From contig JBBDMM010000018.1 of the NCBI GenBank assembly GCA_040878325.1, forward strand, positions 83,083-147,082: a DNA stretch of 64,000 bases, in the 5' to 3' direction. Each line of letters starts with the position of its first letter. Positions within the stretch are counted from its first letter, which is position 1. Shown piece by piece: positions 554 through 63,290 of the stretch. The notes beneath the pieces were generated by a model that saw nothing but the letters and a program-made list of their open reading frames with translations, was not told the origin of the DNA and made no database searches. The stretch comes from Acidimicrobiia bacterium (GTDB lineage: Bacteria; Actinomycetota; Acidimicrobiia; Spongiisociales; UBA11373). The position numbers and the translations under genes were made by a program.

Positions 554-569
554 GAGTCTCCAGCCTCCA

Positions 570-675
570 GTCCCCAGTCAAGAGCGTCCTCCTCCGCCGT
601 CCTCGGCGGGGGAGGTGGCGCCGCCGTTTCGGCGGTGACGGAGGGGGCACTGAGACAGCGTGCGGCCCAACGCGG
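570..675. repeat. Copy 1 of dispersed ~95-nt GC-rich multi-hairpin element (+ orientation), 3' of rplS
   Basis: The core aagagcgtcctcctccgccgtcctcggcgggggaggtggcgccgccgtttcggcggtgacggagggggcactgagacagcgtgcgg is shared with copies at 25384, 35752, 35862(rc) and 63191(rc). It contains inverted repeats cctcctccgccg/cggcgggggagg and gccgccg/cggcgg. Confidence 0.55.
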
Positions 676-2719: not shown

Positions 2720-2830
2720 AGCGATACGCGATAAGCAATTCGCGATACGACGAAAACCTGCCAAGCGCGGGCAGCGCCGGCTTGCGCTCTTTCTGGCTGG
2801 AGCCGGAGCTGGAGCCGGAGCTGTTCAACC
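2720..2830. repeat. Repeat tract phased at 7 nt (gcgatac gcgataa gcaattc gcgatac; ggagcc/ggagct x4)
   Basis: Seen directly; same architecture as the other spacers. Confidence 0.6.
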
Positions 2831-7285: not shown

Positions 7286-8054
7286 GCCCACCGAACCGGA
7301 CATCGCCGAGCATTGGCGGCGGTTCAAGAAGACTGGCGACCCCGCGGCCCGCGAGGGCCTGATCCTCCATTTCTCGCCGCTCGTCAAGTTCGTGGCGGGT
7401 CGCGTCGGTGTTGGGCTTCCTCGCAACGTGGAACAGTCCGACCTCGCCTCGTACGGGATGTTCGGCTTGATAGACGCGATCGACAAGTTCGAGCCCGAGC
7501 GGAACATCAAGTTCGAGACCTACGCGGTCAATCGCATCAAGGGGGCCATCCTCGATGAGTTGCGGGCGCTCGACTGGGTGCCGCGATCGGTGCGGGCCCG
7601 AGCCCGCGAGATCCAGCGGTCCCTCGATGAGCTGGAACACCGGCTGAAGCGGAGCGCCACCGAAGAAGAGCTGTCCGATCACATGAGCATTCCGCTCGAG
7701 ACCCTGCAGACACAACTCGGCGAGATCGCCGGGCTCGGTTTCGTCGCCCTCGATGAACTGGTCGACGCCAGCGATCGGGGCTCGGCGACGATGGGCGATC
7801 TTCTCTCCGACCCCCGTGTCGGCGAGCTGGGGTCCGAGCAGGAGCAGCAGGAGAACCGTTACTTCCTCACCGACGCCATCAATCGCCTCCCTGAGCGCGA
7901 ACGCCTGGTGATCACCCTCTACTACTACGAGGGGCTCACCCTCGCCGAGATCGGCGGCGTCCTCGGCGTCACCGAGTCGCGCATCTGCCAGATCCACACC
8001 AAGTCGGTGATGTCCCTCCGCAACCGAATGCTGGAGCCAGGCCAGAAGCCTTAA
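7260..8054 (+). CDS. FliA/WhiG family RNA polymerase sigma factor (sigma-28 type)
   Basis: Region 2 [13 protein letters not shown]...[15 protein letters not shown] and region 4 [30 protein letters not shown] 7260 overlaps the xerC 3' end by 26 nt. Confidence 0.8.
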
Positions 8055-8320
8055 GAAGTCGCCAGTCTCCAGCCTCCAGCCTCCAGCCTAAGAACCGGCT
8101 CCAGCTCCGGCTCCAGCCAGAAAGAACCGGCCTTCCGCCTTCAGCAAGAAGACCTTGGTCCGGGTTTCGCTTTTCGCCTTTCGCATCCTGAATTCCGCCT
8201 CTCGCGAGTCGCACGCTCGCAACTCGCCCACTCTCCACCCGCCGTCGTATCGCGTATCGCGAGTCCCGTATTCAGCATTGCGGGTTGGGGATTGCTGGCC
8301 TCTACACTCCACTCCAATCA
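8055..8320. repeat. Repeat tract phased at 7 nt filling the sigma-rpsB spacer (ccagcct x3, ccggctccagct x2, ttcgctt/ttcgcct, cgcctct cgcgagt cgcacgc...)
   Basis: Seen directly; the 7-nt phase is maintained across about 250 nt. Confidence 0.65.
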
Positions 8321-11070: not shown

Positions 11071-13721
11071 GCCCCGGCAGGCGAGGAGGCGGCGTGAGCG
11101 ACAGGGGAGACAACGACTTTCAGCCCCATCCGGGCGACCCCTGGCATCCCACGTGGGATAGCGCATACGCTGTCGATCGGCCCGTCGATGCTCCCGAAGC
11201 GGATGAGTCCGACCCGGACGGATCTGCTTCCGGAAAGACCAAGCGGGCAAAGCGCGGTCGCCTTGGACGTCGTCGCAAGGATTCCCCGGCTGAGGCGGCA
11301 AGTGACGTCGAAGAGGAGTCGATCGACGATCCGACCCGCGGTGAGGTCGACTTCGATCTCCCGGCGGCGCCGGTAGCCGAGCCGCCGACCGAGGACCGCG
11401 CCCCACTTCCCGCCTGGCTGGCTGAGTCCGGGCCCGACTCCCCGGCCGCACCCGCGCTCGAGGTCGAATTGCCGTCGTGGGTCGGCGGCGCGACTGCCGG
11501 TGCCGATGACGCCGGTGGCGAGTTCCCCGATCAGGTCTTCGACGACCAGGACGAAGGCGACGACGAGTTGGACGACGGAATCAGCGCGCCGGCCGCGGTC
11601 GAGGCATCGGACGAAATTGCGTCGGTACCCCCTCGTGAAGTTCCCGATGACCTGGCGGCGGTGCTCGACGCGCTCGGCGACGACGGCGACGAGATCGAAG
11701 TCCTCGCGGTGGAAGCCTTCGAAGTCGAAGCCGAGGAAGAGGATCCGGAGGAGTTGCCCGATCTCGAGTCACTCGTCGGAGCAGTCGGCGGCTTCCAGGA
11801 CCCCTCGCCCGAGGACGCCGCGGCTCGCTCCGAGTACGGGGTTGCCGGGCGGGATGCGTTCGATGCGCTGAAAGACCCCGATGGATCCGATGACCTCGGC
11901 GACTGGCATCAGTTTGCGGGAGCCACCGGCGACGAGTCGGAGACGCTGCCCATCGAGGTGGTGGTTGATCCCCCGGTGCCTGAGCCGCGCGAAGGTGGGA
12001 AGCGCGGTCGTTGGTTCCGGCGCAAGGTCGAGGAAGCCGACGAGTCGGAGGTCGTCGCCGAGGAGGCGGCCGATTGGGCCGATGACGGCACTGCGATTCC
12101 GGCGGGATGGTTCGCCGAGATCGACGAAGACACCGTGGTCACGCCCCCGGTCGAGCCCCCCGACACCGAGTATCCGGAACCCGACGAGATAGTCGCGGTG
12201 GCGCCGACCGACCTCGGGTCGGATGAGGTCGAGGAGTTGCCGGTGGCGCTGGCGCCGGGGGATTGGTCGGATGAGGTCGAGGAGTTGCCGGCGGCACCGG
12301 TGGCGGGGGATTGGTCGGATGAGGGTGAGGAGTTGCCGGTGGTGCCGGTGGCGCCGTTGGATTGGTCGGTTGAGGGGGAGGTGCTGCGTTCGAATCTCCC
12401 TGCCGCGCCGCAGCCGGGACTCTTCGACGACCGGCATGCCACGGAGGAGTTCGATCCTATCGCTGCAGGCATCGGTGGGGTCGCTCCCGACATTTCCGCA
12501 ACCCCGGATTGGGAAGACGACCGGGCCGGGGAAGCACCAGTGGCGCAAGGGTTAGCCCCCCTGGGCTTCGACGACGGTGAATCGGCCGGTCACGACGAGG
12601 AGCTCACCTCGGACGAGGATGACGAGGGATACGAAGACCGCTGGGTGACTGGCCCCATCGATCTCGGCGGCGAGTACCTCGGGGCGGCCGATGACTCTGG
12701 CGCCTACGAGTCCATCGACGAACTCGACGACGCCACCTATCGGACCTCGTCGACGACCGAACACCGCGGCCTCGCCGAGGAGATCGCCCTCACGGGCGAC
12801 GAGGAGCACGAATGGCAGGCAATGGCCGCGGCGATGCCCGGGGTCGAATCGGGCGTGGTCGGTTTCGAGGATGTGGCCGACCTCGGCGACGACGAGGAGT
12901 ACCTCGATACCAGGGTGCGGTCGGATTTGGGCACCCGGATCCTCACCGGAGTCGTGCTCGGCGGCTTCTTCCTCGGCTCGCTGTGGGTCGCCCCCGAAGC
13001 CCTGGCGGGTTTCATCGCAATCATCCTGCTGCTGGGACTCGGTGAATTCTTCGCAACCGTGCGCCGACGCGGCTGGCGGCCGCTGGCCCTCTTCGGATTT
13101 CTGGGCGCCATCTCGATGCTGGCTACCACCTGGTTCCATGGCCCGATCGCTGTCGCCGCCACGCTGGCGATGACGACGGTCGTGACGTTCTTTGTGTTCG
13201 CCTTCTCGCCGCTGCGCCGGGATGCGCTGACCAACGGCGGTCTCACCGTTCTCGGCCTGGCGTGGGTCGTCGGCACCGCGGCGTTCGTGTACCCGATCCT
13301 GGCCAACGAGGACTATCGGGTCCTGGTGATTGCCATCGTCGTCGTGACCGCAGCCATGGACATCGGCGCATACGCCGTCGGTCGGGCGTGGGGGGTTCGC
13401 GCGCTTGCGCCCGTCCTCTCCCCGAACAAGTCGGTGGAGGGCCTGGTCGGAGGGATCGGCTTGTGCATGCTCGCCGCAGCCGCCGTGGGCAACTTCCTCG
13501 AGCCATTCGACCTGCTCTCCGGCATCGGGTTGGGGATCGTCGTGGTATTCGCCGCGCCCCTGGGCGACCTGGCCGAATCGATGTTCAAGCGAAGCCTCGG
13601 AGTGAAGGACATGGGGTCGATCCTCCCCGGGCACGGCGGAATCCTCGACCGGGTCGATGCCCTCCTCTTCGTGATTCCTGCAGCGTGGGCGTTCTATCAG
13701 ACCGTCGGGTTCCTGGGGTGA
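11067..13721 (+). CDS. cdsA: Phosphatidate cytidylyltransferase (CdsA) with ~590-aa acidic low-complexity N-terminal extension
   Basis: The C-terminal ~290 aa is canonical CdsA (multiple TM helices, SVEGLVGG...AESMFKRSLGVKDMGSILPGHGGILDR). The N-terminal part is D/E/P/A-rich with DWSDEVEELP repeats. The frame is continuously open from GTG 11067, which overlaps the frr stop. The true start is unverified. Confidence 0.75.
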   Translation: MSPGRRGGGVSDRGDNDFQPHPGDPWHPTWDSAYAVDRPVDAPEADESDPDGSASGKTKRAKRGRLGRRRKDSPAEAASDVEEESIDDPTRGEVDFDLPAAPVAEPPTEDRAPLPAWLAESGPDSPAAPALEVELPSWVGGATAGADDAGGEFPDQVFDDQDEGDDELDDGISAPAAVEASDEIASVPPREVPDDLAAVLDALGDDGDEIEVLAVEAFEVEAEEEDPEELPDLESLVGAVGGFQDPSPEDAAARSEYGVAGRDAFDALKDPDGSDDLGDWHQFAGATGDESETLPIEVVVDPPVPEPREGGKRGRWFRRKVEEADESEVVAEEAADWADDGTAIPAGWFAEIDEDTVVTPPVEPPDTEYPEPDEIVAVAPTDLGSDEVEELPVALAPGDWSDEVEELPAAPVAGDWSDEGEELPVVPVAPLDWSVEGEVLRSNLPAAPQPGLFDDRHATEEFDPIAAGIGGVAPDISATPDWEDDRAGEAPVAQGLAPLGFDDGESAGHDEELTSDEDDEGYEDRWVTGPIDLGGEYLGAADDSGAYESIDELDDATYRTSSTTEHRGLAEEIALTGDEEHEWQAMAAAMPGVESGVVGFEDVADLGDDEEYLDTRVRSDLGTRILTGVVLGGFFLGSLWVAPEALAGFIAIILLLGLGEFFATVRRRGWRPLALFGFLGAISMLATTWFHGPIAVAATLAMTTVVTFFVFAFSPLRRDALTNGGLTVLGLAWVVGTAAFVYPILANEDYRVLVIAIVVVTAAMDIGAYAVGRAWGVRALAPVLSPNKSVEGLVGGIGLCMLAAAAVGNFLEPFDLLSGIGLGIVVVFAAPLGDLAESMFKRSLGVKDMGSILPGHGGILDRVDALLFVIPAAWAFYQTVGFLG
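12215..12386. repeat. 48-bp tandem repeat x3.5 inside the cdsA N-terminal extension (encodes DWSDEVEELPxxPVAx)
   Basis: gattggtcggatgaggtcgaggagttgccggyggcrccggtggcgsss repeated head-to-tail. Confidence 0.8.
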
Positions 13722-19306: not shown

Positions 19307-19652
19307 GTTCGTCAAGATCGGATCGCCAGTCGTCTTCCATTCCCCCACCTCACGCAACAGAGGTCAAGACCGATTTGCCACCCATCGCCCTCCGGTGGCG
19401 AGGACTCGGAAGTTGGCCTCGCTGAGGATGTCGATCGTCTGCTCCCTGACGCGTTCCCACGTGTGCCGCAGGGTGCCGCCGACCTCCAGCGATCATCCCT
19501 CGCCGAGTCGGTCGCCGAGGTCTGAAAGCGCTCCCCGGAGAGTCCCCCTTGCGGGAGGCGGGAGGCGTGGCCATGGCCCAAGGCGGCCGGGAGCCGCCAG
19601 AAGGCGGAAGGCCCTCTTGCTGGAGACTGGAGACTTCCTATCCTCGCCTCTC

Positions 19653-25383: not shown

Positions 25384-25472
25384 AAGAGCGTCCTCCCCCG
25401 GCTTCCGGGGGAGGTGCCGAAGCGAAGCGAGGCGGAGGGGGCAGCGGAGACAGCGTGCGGTCCGACGACGGA
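25384..25472. repeat. Copy 2 of the ~95-nt GC-rich hairpin element (+ orientation), 3' of infB
   Basis: aagagcgtcctcccccggcttccgggggaggtgccgaagcgaagcgaggcggagggggcagcggagacagcgtgcggtccgacgacgg aligns to the 570 and 35752 copies. Confidence 0.55.
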
Positions 25473-25575
25473 GCCTTCTCCAGGAACCGGGACAGTCCTG
25501 CTCGCACCGATTGACTTTCTGGCGAATCGCCAATCGCCAATTGCCTTTCGCGCCGAGCAAAGCGAGGCTTCTTCC

Positions 25576-28992: not shown

Positions 28993-30099
28993 TTGACTGG
29001 AGTGGTGTGGCGGGGCACCCTGCCCTCCCCGCCCTTCCCCGGAAGGGGCACCGTGGTCTCTTTGCTGGTGGCCTCCCTGTGGCTGGGTGGCCTGGGTCTC
29101 ACCGAGGGGGAGCAGCCGGTGGTGCCGACCGACACCAGGCCCCCGGCGGAGGAGCCGGCGGTGCCCGCCGGCGACCGTCCAACGAACCCCATCGTTCCCG
29201 CCGCCATCGGGATGGGGGCGATGCTCGGCCTGTTGCTTTCCCGGCGGGAGGGGCCGGGGGCGGCCCTGATGCTGGAGGCACCCGAGGAGAACCTCGTGGT
29301 CTTCGTCCCGGGTCACGGTCACGGTCCGGGCCAGCAGGTGTTCGACGACCTGGTCGACCTGATGGGGATCGACCCCGAGGACGCCCGCTTCTTCGACTAC
29401 CGGCTCGCCGGAGGATGGCCAGATGCAGAGATGGCGTCGCAGCACCTCCCTGTCAGAGACGCCGCCTCGTCCCTCAACTCGTATCTCGATGCGGTGGCTG
29501 AAGAGGGGCGGCCGATCTACCTGGTCGGGTTCAGCAAGGGAGGCGCCACCGTCGCCCACTTGATCGCCGCCTGGGACGACGGGGCGTATGGGCCGAATGA
29601 TTCGGTCACCGGCGCCGCCCTGCTCGACCCCCCGCTGGCGGCGGGATCGCTCGGCTGGGCGCAGAGCGCCGGGCGTTTCTGGGGATCGGTCCCCGACGAC
29701 GGAGGCTACGACCCGGTGCGCTGCGACTTCATCTGGGTCGGGTGCGAGGACGCCCGGGACAACCTCGGCGACGCATCCGGGGTCGACGTGGTGGTCGTTC
29801 GTAATCCCCGCGCGGGGGTGACGTCCTTCTCGGACTTTCCCGAGGCGCTGCGCATCTACAACGCCGTCGACGAGGGGCCAGGGCTCTGGGACCAGCTGTG
29901 GCGCAACCCGTTCGGCCTGCCAGCCCGGATCTCCCAGGCGCATCATGCCGTTCTCGACGACCCGGAGGTGGCCCGGTGCCTGGTCGCAGAGATGTGGGAC
30001 CCCGGATCGTGCGAACTACCCCGCCACGAGCCCTTCCGCTACCCGGTCTGGCGCCAGCCAGTAGCCGCGCGAGCCCATCGAGGGATATGGCCGATCTAG
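28993..30099 (+). CDS. Secreted/membrane-anchored alpha/beta-hydrolase-fold protein (lipase/esterase-like, GFSKGG nucleophile elbow)
   Basis: N-terminal hydrophobic segment [15 protein letters not shown], and a GxSxG motif. An alternative GTG start at 29053 lies just after a small hairpin. Confidence 0.55.
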
Positions 30100-30114
30100 G
30101 TGCAGGCTCGCCTT

Positions 30115-30168
30115 CGGCTTCCGGCATCCGCAAGAAATGCGGCGGCCGGCCCCGAGGAAGCCTTTAGT
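30115..30168 (+). terminator. Terminator-like nested hairpin (ggcttcc...ccgcaagaaatgcgg...ggaagcc) followed by tttagt
   Basis: Inverted repeats seen directly, immediately 3' of the hydrolase gene. Confidence 0.35.
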
Positions 30169-30172
30169 GGCG

Positions 30173-30215
30173 TCGCGCATTGCGCATTGCGCATTGCGCA
30201 TTGCGTATCGCGTTC
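30173..30215. repeat. gcgcatt x4 heptamer tandem repeat (then gcgtatc gcg)
   Basis: Perfect 7-nt tandem copies, seen directly. Confidence 0.8.
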
Positions 30216-30286
30216 GACGGAATGGACCCCCTCGTACGTCTGTTACAGTTCATGTCGCTAGAGGAGTTCTCCTCCAGCGCTTTCCC

Positions 30287-33261: not shown

Positions 33262-33453
33262 ATGAAGGTTCGTTCATTCATCGCCTGCTTCCTGATCGTC
33301 ACCGCGTGTGGCGGTGGGGGTGATCCGTCGGTGCCCGCAGGGCAGGACGACGGGCTCATCACCGGAAATGTCGAGCGGTCCCAAGAGGTCGCCGACCAGG
33401 CGAGCGATCGGGAGAGCGAACTCGAACAGATCGTGGAGGACATGGGGGGATAG
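33262..33453 (+). CDS. Hypothetical small lipoprotein (signal peptide plus LIVTAC lipobox, acidic mature part)
   Basis: 63-aa ORF in a locally lower-GC segment. MKVRSFIACFLIVTACGGGG. Confidence 0.35.
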   Translation: MKVRSFIACFLIVTACGGGGDPSVPAGQDDGLITGNVERSQEVADQASDRESELEQIVEDMGG

Positions 33454-33454
33454 C

Positions 33455-33577
33455 CCCCAGCCTCCATCCTCCAGCAAGAGGCGCGCTAGTCGGGTTCTGC
33501 CTTTCGCTCTTCGCCTTTCGCATCCCATAAGGCGCTCTGTCGCGGTGCGCATCGCGCATCGCGCATTGCATTGCGCA
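33455..33577. repeat. Repeat tract phased at 7 nt (ccagcct/ccatcct, ttcgctc ttcgcct ttcgcat, gcgcatc gcgcatc gcgcatt gcattgc gcatcga)
   Basis: Seen directly. Confidence 0.6.
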
Positions 33578-33593
33578 TCGAACATATGTTCGG
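33578..33593 (+). promoter_or_regulatory. LexA operator (actinobacterial/Cheo-type SOS box TCGAAC-ATAT-GTTCGG), followed by a TAAGAT -10-like hexamer
   Basis: Perfect CGAAC-N4-GTTCG palindrome 10 nt upstream of the imuA' start. Established consensus for Gram-positive/actinobacterial LexA. Confidence 0.6.
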
Positions 33594-35658: not shown

Positions 35659-35745
35659 CGGCCGCCTTCGGCGGCCAGGCGATTGGCGATTGGCGATTGG
35701 CAAGAAAGAAGAGAAGAGTCTTATCTCCTCCCGGAACCCGGAGGA
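35659..35745. repeat. Repeat tract phased at 7 nt (ggcgatt x3, then aagaaga gaagagt cttatct)
   Basis: Seen directly. Confidence 0.7.
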
Positions 35746-35751
35746 GATAAG

Positions 35752-35847
35752 AAGAGCGTCCTCCTCCGTCGTCTTCGACGGGGGAGGTGGCGCCGCCGTC
35801 TTCGGCGGTGACGGAGGGGGCGGCGGAGACAGCGGGCGGTCGGACGA
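35752..35847. repeat. Copy 3 of the ~95-nt GC-rich hairpin element (+ orientation), 3' of imuB
   Basis: aagagcgtcctcctccgtcgtcttcgacgggggaggtggcgccgccgtcttcggcggtgacggagggggcggcggagacagcgggcggtcggacgac; about 90% identical to the copy at 570. Confidence 0.6.
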
Positions 35848-35861
35848 CTTCTTCAAGAACC

Positions 35862-35948
35862 GGGTCCAGTCCCTCTCGCAGGGTCAGCCGCCCCCCCTCC
35901 CCCCTTCGGGGTACTCCCCCCGGAAGCCGGAGGGAGACGTCGGGAAGG
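35862..35948. repeat. Copy 4 of the element in - orientation (3' of recQ), forming an inverted pair with copy 3
   Basis: ctcgcagggtcagccgcccc...ccggaagccggagggag; its reverse complement contains ccggcttccgggggga, matching the 25384 copy, and the 5' end matches the 63191 copy. Confidence 0.5.
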
Positions 35949-54655: not shown

Positions 54656-55128
54656 CGATTCCGGAGGCATCGCAACGGGTGATCGAAGGCGGCCGGGCAC
54701 TGGGCGTGGAGATCGACATCCACGTGTTCCCCGAAGGCACCAAGACCTCCGCCGACGCCGCCGCCGCCATCGGCTGCGACCTGTCGGCGATCGCCAAATC
54801 GATCGTCTTCACCCTCGACGACCGAGAGCAAGTGGTGGTCTTCGCCAGCGGCGACACCAGGATCGACGTGGGGAAACTCGCGGCGGTGGTTGGTGTCGAT
54901 TCGGTACGCCGAGCCACGCTGGAGGAGGCCAGGGAGGCCACCGGATTCGCCCCCGGAGGCACGCCGCCGTTCGGATACCCCGGCCCGGTCAGGGTGTTCG
55001 CTGATGAGGCCTTGCGACGCCACGATTTGGTGTGGGCGGCAGGCGGCACGCCGACGACGGTGTTCCCGATCAAGTTGGAGGAGTTGGTCCGCGCGGCAGG
55101 AGCGGAGTGGGTGGAGGTGAGTGAGTAG
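54652..55128 (+). CDS. ybaK: YbaK/ProX-family aminoacyl-tRNA deacylase
   Basis: IGCDLSAIAKSIVF...VVVFASGDTRID...GGTPPFG. GGAGGG RBS; ATGA overlap. Confidence 0.8.
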   Translation: MTIPEASQRVIEGGRALGVEIDIHVFPEGTKTSADAAAAIGCDLSAIAKSIVFTLDDREQVVVFASGDTRIDVGKLAAVVGVDSVRRATLEEAREATGFAPGGTPPFGYPGPVRVFADEALRRHDLVWAAGGTPTTVFPIKLEELVRAAGAEWVEVSE

Positions 55129-57978: not shown

Positions 57979-58118
57979 CTGTCGGCAATCGCCAAATCGA
58001 ATCGTGTTCGCCCTCGATGGCCAGGAACAAGTGGTGGTCTTCGCCCGCCACGTCACCAGGATCGACATGGGCGGGTTGACTGCGATTGCCGGAGCCGATG
58101 GAGCGCTATCGAGTCGCC
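57979..58118 (+). pseudogene. Non-coding relic: ~140-bp duplicated fragment of ybaK (about 80% identical to 54781-54920)
   Basis: ctgtcggcaatcgccaaatcga...caagtggtggtcttcgcc...caccaggatcgac aligns base-for-base with the intact ybaK. Confidence 0.55.
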
Positions 58119-63085: not shown

Positions 63086-63190
63086 GACTGGAACCATATC
63101 ACATGGTTATGGTCGTGTCGACTAGAACATTTACGAGAGGCGATGGGCGAATCGAGAAGGGGATTGGCAATCGAGGTCTTGAAGTCGTCA

Positions 63191-63290
63191 GAGTGCTCGC
63201 AGGGTCAGCTGCCCCCTCCGCCTCGCTTCGCTTCGGCACCTCCCCCGCCCCAGGCGGCAGGGGAGGACCCTGGCCTCCCTCAACCGTCCA
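63191..63290. repeat. Copy 5 of the ~95-nt GC-rich hairpin element (- orientation), 3' of the ABC ATPase gene
   Basis: Its reverse complement contains ggaggtgccgaagcgaagcgaggcggagggggcag, matching the 25384 copy. Confidence 0.55.

What the first reader, a model, noticed from the sequence alone, without database searches (positions are those of the whole stretch)
570..675. Dispersed ~95-nt GC-rich multi-hairpin element: five copies, each immediately 3' of a gene in that gene's orientation
Copies at 570-675 (+, after rplS), 25384-25472 (+, after infB), 35752-35847 (+, after imuB), 35862-35948 (-, after recQ) and 63191-63290 (-, after the ABC ATPase gene). They share aagagcgtcctcc..ccg..cgggggaggtg..[gcgccgccg-tttc-cggcggtgac | ccgaagcgaagcgaggc]..ggagggggc..gagacagcgkgcgg. 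Each contains two or three strong inverted repeats (for example cctcctccgccg/cggcgggggagg). Every copy sits immediately after a stop codon in the orientation of the upstream gene. That placement fits a terminator-like or 3'-UTR processing element, a REP/MITE-like mobile element, or a small RNA family. Each copy is also flanked by the heptamer tracts.
Basis: seen in the sequence. Interest (0 to 1): 0.7.

Follow-up and report, generated by a model that had tools for sequence, protein, structure and literature searches.

The report
Mobile hairpin repeat linked to DUF559
The five copies are real members of a GC-rich, multi-hairpin intergenic repeat family that comes and goes between related genomes, occurs in many bacterial phyla, and elsewhere brackets small DUF559 (Vsr-like) nuclease genes, a pairing I could not find described in the literature.

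Summary
A covariance model built only from copies in other bacteria finds exactly the five reported copies in the 64 kb window (E 3e-13 to 2e-8). The unit is 85-95 nt: hairpin 1 (CCTCC../..GGAGG), TG, a variable hairpin 2, a GGAGGGGGC box, and a short lineage-specific tail hairpin. Both main hairpins show compensatory changes.

The rule "always 3' of a gene in that gene's orientation" does not generalise. Between same-direction genes, copies are co-oriented 29 versus 24 times family-wide and 22 versus 13 times in close relatives. No copy has a hairpin followed by a T-run, and nothing matches Rfam.

Orthologous spacers differ by presence or absence of the element, and one relative has three tandem units where the window has none. 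The same architecture occurs in Alphaproteobacteria, Actinomycetota, Rhodothermales, Chloroflexi, Deinococcus and Neisseria.

In 23 loci it lies within about 300 nt of a DUF559 gene, on one side or both (a look-alike in two more). The usual arrangement is one copy just upstream in gene orientation and an inverted copy downstream. In Deinococcus this cassette has 56-bp inverted ends and is missing from a related plasmid.

Best reading: a REP/BIME-like non-autonomous mobile repeat. The partner nuclease is probably DUF559, but that step is inferred.

The parts
580..675 (+). Copy c1, between rplS and a signal-peptidase gene. Leader AAGAGC, hairpin 1 at 588-615, hairpin 2 at 619-638, G-box GGAGGGGGC at 640-648, tail hairpin to 675.
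   Evidence: Sequence; model R1 hit 586-648, E 3e-9; fold.
25384..25470 (+). Copy c2, between infB and a DUF503 gene. The middle segment is the CCGAAGCGAAGCGAGGC variant. This spacer has no element in the related contig L178.
   Evidence: (E 2.6e-13).
35752..35848 (+). Copy c3, after the ImuB-like gene. It is the left half of a tail-to-tail doublet with c4.
   Evidence: (E 2.5e-10).
35862..35944 (-). Copy c4, after recQ. A divergent variant (GTCTCCC..GGGGGGAGTACCCC..GGAGGGGGGG) with tail type B (GGCGGCTGACCCTGCG). A similar variant lies about 160 nt upstream of a DUF559 gene in an Acidimicrobiia MAG (L200).
   Evidence: (E 1.8e-8).
63184..63274 (-). Copy c5, between the ABC ATPase gene and a NUDIX/NrtR gene, both on the minus strand. 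Tail type B.
   Evidence: (E 1.3e-10).
555..579 (.). Heptamer tract (AGTCTCC x3.6) abutting the 5' end of c1. Further tracts at 677-695 and 698-722 lie 3' of c1. They neighbour the element but are not part of the conserved unit.
   Evidence: The conservation profile shows the unit starts 2-6 nt before GTCC.
35678..35752 (.). GGCGATT x3.4 tract plus a small AT-richer hairpin (35719-35752) just 5' of c3. This block, c3 and the start of c4 recur together at a non-orthologous locus (L188, 78% identity over about 250 nt).

Best explanation
The five copies are non-autonomous members of a widespread family of interspersed palindromic DNA repeats. In kind this family resembles REP/BIME/REPIN elements.

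Each unit can fold, as a single strand, into two or three GC-rich hairpins followed by a G-rich box. Copies are gained, lost and tandemly amplified in intergenic spacers. Selection leaves them mainly where they do no harm, downstream of genes.

Longer relatives of the same repeat bracket a small DUF559 gene, which encodes a Vsr-like PD-(D/E)XK nuclease, as inverted ends. I infer that this nuclease recognises the hairpin/G-box module and drives spread of both the cassette and the solo repeats. That would be the role a RAYT transposase plays for REPs.

- Shown: family membership, hairpin covariation, intergenic restriction, presence/absence polymorphism, the physical link to DUF559 genes, and insertion polymorphism of one DUF559 cassette.
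- Inferred: that DUF559 binds or cuts the repeat, and the route of copying.
- Plausible but untested: effects on mRNA 3' ends. These would be secondary.
For: - Family. I estimate about 0.2 expected by chance, assuming equal base frequencies. A lineage-specific pattern hit 70 metagenome contigs.
- Structure. In hairpin 2, 4 of 5 pairs change on both sides. When divergent copies are added, 8 of 9 pairs of hairpin 1 do too. 93% of cells are paired against 43-61% when partners are slid, and 0 of 500 shuffles reach the observed value.
- Position. 0 of 87 lineage copies lie inside called genes. Convergent versus divergent spacers are 29:12 and 17:11.
- Mobility. The c2 spacer is empty in L178. The window spacer 30094-30219 has no element, while its orthologue in L123 has three tandem 174-bp units. 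The c3/c4 spacer holds two plus-strand copies in L172. A Logan assembly breaks 60 nt after rplS, inside c1.
- DUF559 link. All 9 DUF559 genes found in the 121 pattern-selected loci have model hits beside them.
- DUF559 link, reciprocal test. DUF559 genes chosen without regard to the repeat also have it: 7 of 8 plasmid or chromid genes at E below 1e-3 and the eighth at 0.012; 4 of 4 contexts of the closest homologues; and Neisseria. In the window itself the model gave no false hit at that level in 64 kb.
- Cassette. In Deinococcus psychrotolerans the DUF559 gene has 56-bp near-perfect inverted ends and sits between paaD and paaZ. The same spacer in Deinococcus sp. QL22 is 83 nt and empty.
- Nuclease. 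These ORFs match Pfam DUF559 at E 3e-26 to 3e-36. The nearest solved structure is 3HRL. A Caulobacter DUF559 protein causes DNA damage in vivo (PMC12907096).
Against: - No DUF559 gene is present in the window or in about 0.5 Mb of the closest metagenome contigs. The link is therefore shown for the family, not for this genome.
- No target-site duplication or exact insertion junction could be defined.
- Orientation of the flanking copies around DUF559 is not uniform. In Deinococcus the heads face inward; in most other loci the tails do.
- The published view of DUF559/VsrA is T:G mismatch repair, not transposition.
- Wobble pairs favour one strand (G.T 28 versus A.C 4 in hairpin 2; the sense strand folds better in 156 of 189 copies). 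This could equally point to an RNA-level constraint, and the copies counted are not independent.
Confidence: 0.7

Rival explanations
1. The element is mainly a transcription terminator or mRNA 3'-end stabiliser. Its GC-rich hairpins would stop RNA polymerase or block 3' exonucleases, and this function would explain why it is kept after genes.
For: All five window copies follow a co-oriented gene. Convergent spacers are favoured over divergent ones, 46 to 23 in total. The hairpins are stable and covary. Wobble pairs favour the sense strand. High-GC Actinomycetota are known to use terminators without clear U-tracts (general knowledge).
Against: - No copy has a T-run after a stem.
- Between same-direction genes, orientation is 29 versus 24 family-wide and 22 versus 13 in the lineage.
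- 23 copies sit in divergent, promoter-side spacers.
- c1 and c2 lie between same-strand neighbours (rplS and a signal-peptidase gene; infB and a DUF503 gene).
- Orthologous spacers do without the element.
- Three tandem copies occur in L123.
Confidence: 0.12
2. The DUF559 gene is a free-standing, homing-endonuclease-like parasite that targets the repeat. It would insert between or next to copies, while the repeats themselves spread by another route such as another transposase, replication slippage or recombination.
For: - Vsr-like nucleases include true homing endonucleases (PMC2677866, PMC3239194).
- Tail-to-tail doublets such as c3/c4 look like empty versions of the copy-gene-inverted-copy arrangement.
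- Several DUF559 reading frames run on into the downstream inverted copy.
- DUF559 genes appear far rarer than the repeats (23 loci with a gene versus several hundred copies in 1.42 Mb).
Against: - A same-orientation copy sits just upstream of the start codon in about 16 of 19 loci. A simple random hit into a doublet does not predict this.
- The Deinococcus cassette appears with its inverted ends at a site that lacks them in the relative.
Confidence: 0.2
3. It is a family of small RNAs or a cis-regulatory RNA, for example a leader that controls DUF559 translation through its Shine-Dalgarno-like GGAGG boxes and the CCUCC arm that can pair with them.
For: GGGGGAGGTG and GGAGGGGGC are Shine-Dalgarno-like, and the 5' arm resembles the anti-Shine-Dalgarno sequence (read directly from the sequence). 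In L022 the G-box ends 4 nt before the ATG. Covariation is present.
Against: There is no Rfam match, even at relaxed thresholds. Hundreds of solo copies are not next to any start codon. Orientation is not tied to transcription. Spacing to the DUF559 start varies from 4 to about 160 nt.
Confidence: 0.05

Closest known systems
REP / BIME / REPIN elements with their RAYT transposases (Enterobacteria, Pseudomonas, Stenotrophomonas; PMC2817692, PMC3733652)
   Same: Short GC-rich imperfect palindromes. High copy number and strictly extragenic. Enriched downstream of genes and between convergent genes. Occur singly, as inverted doublets and in clusters. A low-copy nuclease gene is bracketed by inverted copies of the repeat.
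   Different: - There is no GTAG head.
- The unit is longer and has several hairpins plus a G-box.
- The bracketed gene is a PD-(D/E)XK Vsr-like DUF559 gene, not an HUH Y1 transposase.
- No RAYT-like ORF was found in 1.42 Mb around the copies (the query sequence was recalled from memory).
CGTC-tagged REPs (Di Nocera et al. 2013, PMC3733652)
   Same: Mostly found in Alphaproteobacteria. Head-to-head dimers are common. They are reported to lack a dedicated transposase. The window's lineage copies do begin GCGTCC, so the tag CGTC is present.
   Different: The published definition is an 8-9 bp stem starting with A/T pairs, a 4-5 nt loop and a CCA tail. Here the stem starts CCTCC, is 9-14 bp long, and is followed by hairpin 2 and the G-box. 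Outside the lineage the base before GTCC varies.
E. coli BoxC repeats (56 bp, about 22-32 copies, function unknown; PMC2267715 table)
   Same: The E. coli DUF559 gene (ycjD) is followed by CCCTCTCC..GGAGAGGG..TTA..GGGTGAGGGG elements. These have the same layout: a C-rich arm, a loop, a G-rich arm and a G-box. That sequence is dispersed at a median of 16 and up to 29 places per genome in all 5,426 complete E. coli genomes. This fits the BoxC copy number.
   Different: The identification as BoxC rests on copy number and on my memory that BoxC was first seen next to envM/fabI. Model R1 does not score the E. coli copies significantly (E 0.27). There is no hairpin 2.
Vsr-like homing endonucleases (I-Bth0305I family; PMC2677866, PMC3239194) and Caulobacter VsrA (PMC12907096)
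   Same: Same nuclease superfamily as DUF559 (grouped as Vsr/DUF559/DUF2726, structures 1cw0, 3hrl, 3r3p, in PMC3424549). They show that this fold can serve selfish-element mobility and can damage DNA in vivo.
   Different: Those enzymes sit in introns or inteins, or act in mismatch repair. None is described with flanking interspersed repeats.
Caulobacter CIR / Brucella Bru-RS repeats (as summarised in PMC2229807)
   Same: About 110-bp intergenic repeats conserved across Alphaproteobacteria, with two hairpin arms joined by a linker.
   Different: CIRs are defined by GANTC methylation sites in a loop. None of the five window cores contains GANTC (direct reading). The CIR consensus was not available to me, so identity could not be tested.

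Membership tests
REP/REPIN-RAYT | Short imperfect palindrome, extragenic, many copies | tested here: met
   Five copies in 64 kb. 0 of 87 lineage copies lie inside called genes. Hairpins are supported by covariation.
REP/REPIN-RAYT | Conserved GTAG tetranucleotide at the 5' end | tested here: not met
   The 5' end is (A)AGAGC-GTCCTCC in the lineage and N-GTCCTCC elsewhere.
REP/REPIN-RAYT | Copies flank a RAYT (Y1 HUH transposase) gene | tested here: not met
   tblastn with E. coli YafM found no hit at E up to 1 in 206 loci, 1.42 Mb. Caveat: the query sequence was recalled from memory. A DUF559 query found 23 loci in the same set.
REP/REPIN-RAYT | Inverted doublets able to form a long hairpin | tested here: met
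   c3/c4 are tail-to-tail. Head-to-head pairs occur in L004, L051, L094, L104 and L105.
CGTC-tagged REP | 5' CGTC tag | tested here: inconclusive
   Present in the lineage (C at position -1 carries 1.9 bits). Not conserved family-wide.
CGTC-tagged REP | 8-9 bp stem starting with A/T pairs, 4-5 nt loop, CCA tail | tested here: not met
   Definition from PMC3733652. Here the stem starts CCTCC, is 9-14 bp long, and has no CCA tail.
MITE | Terminal inverted repeats at the two ends of the unit | tested here: not met
   The unit ends (AAGAGCGTCC... and ...GCGCGCCGACGCG) are not inverted copies of each other.
MITE | Target-site duplication | tested here: inconclusive
   No consistent direct repeat flanks the unit. 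The filled/empty pairs available are too diverged to define junctions.
Intrinsic terminator | GC-rich hairpin directly followed by a T/U run | tested here: not met
   No terminator-like site overlaps any of the five copies.
Any Rfam family | Score at or above the family's gathering threshold | tested here: not met
   No hits in the window. The relaxed scan gave only chance hairpin matches far below threshold.
E. coli BoxC | Sequence or structure match to the BoxC consensus | tested here: inconclusive
   The layout is the same by eye and the copy number fits. R1 scores E 0.27. The BoxC consensus was not available in the library.
Caulobacter CIR | GANTC site in a hairpin loop | tested here: not met
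   No GANTC occurs within the five window cores (direct reading). The CIR consensus was not available.
DUF559-bracketing repeat (family proposed here) | Same model-defined module lying beside a DUF559 ORF | tested here: met
   Met for the family. Not met in the window itself: there is no DUF559 ORF in the 64 kb.

The most novel reading that the evidence does not exclude
A previously unrecognised kind of REPtron-like system. In it, a small Vsr-like PD-(D/E)XK nuclease (DUF559), rather than an HUH tyrosine transposase, is the partner of an interspersed hairpin-plus-G-box repeat. The system would be present in Actinomycetota, Alpha-, Beta- and Gammaproteobacteria, Deinococcota and Cyanobacteria. 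E. coli BoxC with ycjD would be one instance. It could give a function to DUF559 and supply a missing enzyme for 'orphan' palindromic repeats.
Probability: 0.35. Interest if true: 0.85.

Novelty: new variant of a known kind. Interest (0 to 1): 0.62.

Why it matters
Interspersed palindromic repeats are common, but only the GTAG REPs have a known mobilising enzyme. Di Nocera et al. explicitly left other families without one.

Here a repeat family shared by several phyla is tied, in both directions of testing, to an abundant domain of unknown function. Its only functional data point is DNA damage in Caulobacter.

If the link is functional, three things follow:
- DUF559 gets a role.
- The origin of BoxC-like repeats is explained.
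- A nuclease fold is added to the short list of enzymes that spread non-autonomous repeats.

The practical point is that these repeats break short-read assemblies and can be misread as terminators or small RNAs.

Tried and rejected
- Rfam at gathering and relaxed thresholds found nothing.
- A full-text search for the core sequence found only unrelated primers.
- Searches for DUF559, for Vsr-like with repeats, and for REPIN/RAYT with Vsr found no paper linking them.
- Canonical terminator scans were negative.
- The single-sequence fold z-scores are unremarkable (-2.7 to +0.7) because the sequence is so GC-rich. The structure rests on covariation, not on energy.
- A RAYT search found nothing.
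- The search for exact empty and filled sites among near-identical contigs found only a heptamer copy-number difference and one replaced cassette. It gave no clean junction.
- I considered the heptamer tracts as target-site footprints. I dropped the idea because the tracts on the two sides usually differ, and 174 of 266 tracts are not near a copy.
- CGTC-REP membership was rejected on stem, loop and tail.
- CIR identity could not be tested because the paper is not held.
- My gene calls come from a home-made codon-bias caller, so the orientation counts are approximate.

Full report

Yes. The five stretches align with 39 invariant columns, and pairwise repeat detection recovers them (D8, D11, I1, I5, I9, I10).

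I built a covariance model (R1) from 26 short copies taken only from other organisms. Run on the whole window with filters off, it gave exactly five strong hits, with E from 2.6e-13 to 1.8e-8. The sixth hit (E 0.006) is the antisense reading of hairpin 1 of copy 2.

The element starts 27, 21, 94, 25 and about 6 nt after the upstream stop codon.

**2. Anatomy**

Anchored conservation profiles over 71 lineage copies show a sharp 5' edge. Information appears at GC just before GTCC, with a weak AAGA before that. The 3' edge lies about 27 nt past the G-box.

The unit reads:
- leader (A)AGAGC;
- hairpin 1, CCTCC(N4-9)-loop-(N4-9)GGAGG;
- TG;
- hairpin 2, whose sequence is free but whose pairing is kept, or the variant CCGAAGCGAAGCGAGGC;
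- GGAGGGGGC;
- a tail, GGCGGAGACAGCGTGCGCG..CGCG (type A) or GGCGGCTGACCCTGCG (type B), which forms a short third hairpin.

Single-sequence folding energies are not unusual for such GC-rich DNA (z from -2.7 to +0.7). Covariation is the evidence for structure. In hairpin 2, four of five pairs change on both sides. After adding divergent copies, eight of nine pairs in hairpin 1 do as well. Then 93% of cells are paired, against 43-61% when partners are slid, and 0 of 500 shuffles reach the observed score. That alignment was fitted to the model, which favours the structure somewhat.

Wobble pairs favour one strand: G.T 28 versus A.C 4 in hairpin 2, and the sense strand folds better in 156 of 189 copies. 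Many of these copies are related, so the counts are not independent.

**3. Distribution**

The pattern GTCCTCC-N8-30-GGGGGAGGTG-N10-40-GGAGGGGGC has 26 fixed bases. I estimate about 0.2 chance matches in 596 Gb, assuming equal base frequencies.

The hits are in Caulobacterales and Hyphomonadaceae, other Alphaproteobacteria, Acidimicrobiia and other Actinomycetota, Rhodothermales, Chloroflexi, Bradymonadales and a few others.

A lineage-specific pattern that includes tail type A hit 70 contigs from four JGI metagenomes. Several of these are syntenic with the window at 72-85% identity.

**4. Position and orientation**

I used a self-trained codon-bias gene caller, which reproduces the window's genes well.

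A copy between convergent genes is always co-oriented with its upstream gene, and a copy between divergent genes never is. Only copies between same-direction genes carry orientation information.

| Set | Co-oriented | Anti-oriented | Convergent | Divergent |
|---|---|---|---|---|
| Family-wide | 29 | 24 | 29 | 12 |
| Close lineage | 22 | 13 | 17 | 11 |

Neither orientation split is significant. The window's 5/5 therefore amounts to three informative copies (chance 1/8).

Position is not random. 0 of 87 lineage copies lie inside called genes. Convergent spacers beat divergent ones 46 to 23, although a genome has equal numbers of each. None of the five copies has a T-run after a stem. Rfam has no match.

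**5. Gain, loss and amplification**

- The infB-DUF503 spacer carries c2 in the window but only heptamer tracts in the related contig L178.
- The window spacer 30094-30219 has no element. Its orthologue in L123 has three tandem 174-bp units, each with a copy plus heptamer tracts.
- The ImuB-RecQ spacer has a tail-to-tail pair in the window and two plus-strand copies in L172.
- A block of about 250 nt (GGCGATT tract, small hairpin, c3, start of c4) recurs at a non-orthologous locus, L188, at 78% identity.
- Between conserved heptamer tracts, L182 and L154 carry different element variants.
- A Logan assembly with an identical rplS breaks 60 nt past the stop, inside c1.

**6. The DUF559 link**

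In locus L105, four copies surround a 117-aa ORF that matches Pfam DUF559 at E 3e-30.

tblastn found DUF559 ORFs in 9 of the 121 pattern-selected loci. Model hits lie beside all nine.

The recurrent layout is a copy in gene orientation just upstream, with the G-box 4 to about 50 nt before the start codon. This copy is often preceded by an oppositely oriented copy, and an inverted copy lies at or overlapping the stop. Several reading frames run on into that downstream copy.

For the reciprocal test I took DUF559 genes without regard to the repeat:
- Eight genes from plasmids and chromids. Seven have R1 hits at E below 1e-3 within about 270 nt. The eighth (Sphingobium) scores 0.012 and shows the same layout by eye.
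- Four contexts of the closest homologues of the L105 protein, one from an Acidimicrobiia MAG. All are positive, with E from 8e-5 to 1e-12.
- Neisseria gonorrhoeae. Positive at 6e-4.
- E. coli ycjD and a Synechocystis gene. Both have look-alike CCCTCTCC..GGAGAGGG..GGGTGAGGGG elements, but R1 does not score them.

The stem sequence changes with lineage (CCTCC/GGAGG, CCTTCTCC/GGAGAAGG, CCCCTCCC/GGGAGGGG) while the layout stays the same.

In Deinococcus psychrotolerans the gene has 56-bp near-perfect inverted ends and sits between paaD and paaZ. In Deinococcus sp. QL22 the same spacer is 83 nt with no cassette.

No DUF559 gene is present in the window or in the 70 lineage contigs. A RAYT query found nothing in 1.42 Mb (that query was recalled from memory).

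**7. Mechanism**

Shown:
- a structured palindromic repeat that is intergenic, polymorphic and amplifiable;
- a physical link between this repeat and DUF559 genes;
- a DUF559 cassette that is itself polymorphic in insertion.

Inferred:
- DUF559 belongs to the Vsr/DUF559 clade of PD-(D/E)XK nucleases (PMC3424549), its nearest solved structure is 3HRL, and the Caulobacter DUF559 protein VsrA causes SOS induction (PMC12907096). I infer that it recognises the hairpin/G-box module and nicks it, starting copying of the cassette and, in trans, of solo units.
- A variant I cannot exclude is that the gene is a homing-type parasite of the repeats.
- T.G pairs recur at fixed places in hairpin 1 (CCCCTGC/GCGGGGG), which is suggestive for a Vsr-like enzyme. 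This is speculation.
- Effects on mRNA 3' ends are likely to be by-products.

**8. Comparison with known families**

In kind this is a REP/BIME/REPIN-like element, but it fails the GTAG and RAYT criteria. It also does not fit the published CGTC-REP definition, although its lineage copies start CGTC.

The sequence next to E. coli ycjD is dispersed at a median of 16 places per genome in all 5,426 complete genomes. This fits BoxC (22-32 copies; PMC2267715). My recollection, not a tool result, is that BoxC was first described next to envM/fabI, the neighbour of ycjD.

I found no paper connecting DUF559 with interspersed repeats.

**9. Verdict**

The terminator and small-RNA readings are not supported. 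The REP/MITE-like reading is supported and extended. The family is a new variant of a known kind. Its link to DUF559 appears to be unreported and is directly testable.

Noticed in passing
window 555-579, 677-722, 1492-1636, 2721-2749, 8062-8261, 19551-19635, 25525-25545, 30175-30205, 33452-33578, 35678-35701; also loci L122-L191: Intergenic spacers are full of short tandem arrays with period 7 and many different units. There are 266 such arrays with 169 distinct units in 535 kb of lineage DNA, far more than for period 6 (58) or period 8 (28). 56 of 87 element copies have an array adjacent, but 174 arrays are not near any copy. The arrays vary in copy number: L146 and L165 are otherwise identical and differ by 13 extra CGTCTCC units.
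   Followed up: partly
L208 (E. coli, ycjD region) 815-844 and 997-1040; all E. coli genomes: The E. coli DUF559 gene ycjD is followed by CCCTCTCC..GGAGAGGG..GGGTGAGGGG elements. That sequence occurs at a median of 16 and up to 29 places in every one of 5,426 complete genomes. It is probably the old 'BoxC' repeat, whose function is unknown.
   Followed up: partly
L196 483-1003 versus L206 516-598: A cassette of about 520 bp, made of a DUF559 gene with 56-bp near-perfect inverted ends, lies between paaD and paaZ in Deinococcus psychrotolerans. It is absent from the same spacer in Deinococcus sp. QL22.
   Followed up: yes
L123 2440-2960: Three head-to-tail 174-bp units, each holding one element copy plus GCAATTC and GGCGGAA heptamer tracts. 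The window's orthologous spacer (30094-30219) has none.
   Followed up: yes
window 35719-35752: A 13-bp AT-richer hairpin (TCTTATCTCCTCC..GGAGGAGATAAGA) with a T-rich run on the minus strand. It is the only terminator-like site near any copy and could end recQ transcripts. It travels with c3 in the composite seen in L188.
   Followed up: partly
window 2788-2818 and 8095-8125: A perfect 31-nt inverted repeat (TCTTTCTGGCTGGAGCCGGAGCTGGAGCCGG) whose arms are 5.3 kb apart, both in repeat-rich spacers. A second, 85% complementary pair lies at 1606-1639 and 8054-8087.
   Followed up: no
window 12217-12375: A 48-bp tandem repeat (3.2 copies, 82% matches) inside the long ORF 11094-13721. The period is a multiple of three, so it is probably a repeated peptide segment.
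   Followed up: no
window 54802-54872 and 58001-58071: A 71-nt direct repeat at 83% identity, 3.2 kb apart, within called coding regions. It may reflect paralogous genes.
   Followed up: no
L001 (Logan SRR27977662 contig) and one search hit table: Short-read assemblies break at these repeats. The contig with an identical rplS ends inside c1. Many DUF559 homologues are known only from contigs of 0.5-2 kb.
   Followed up: partly
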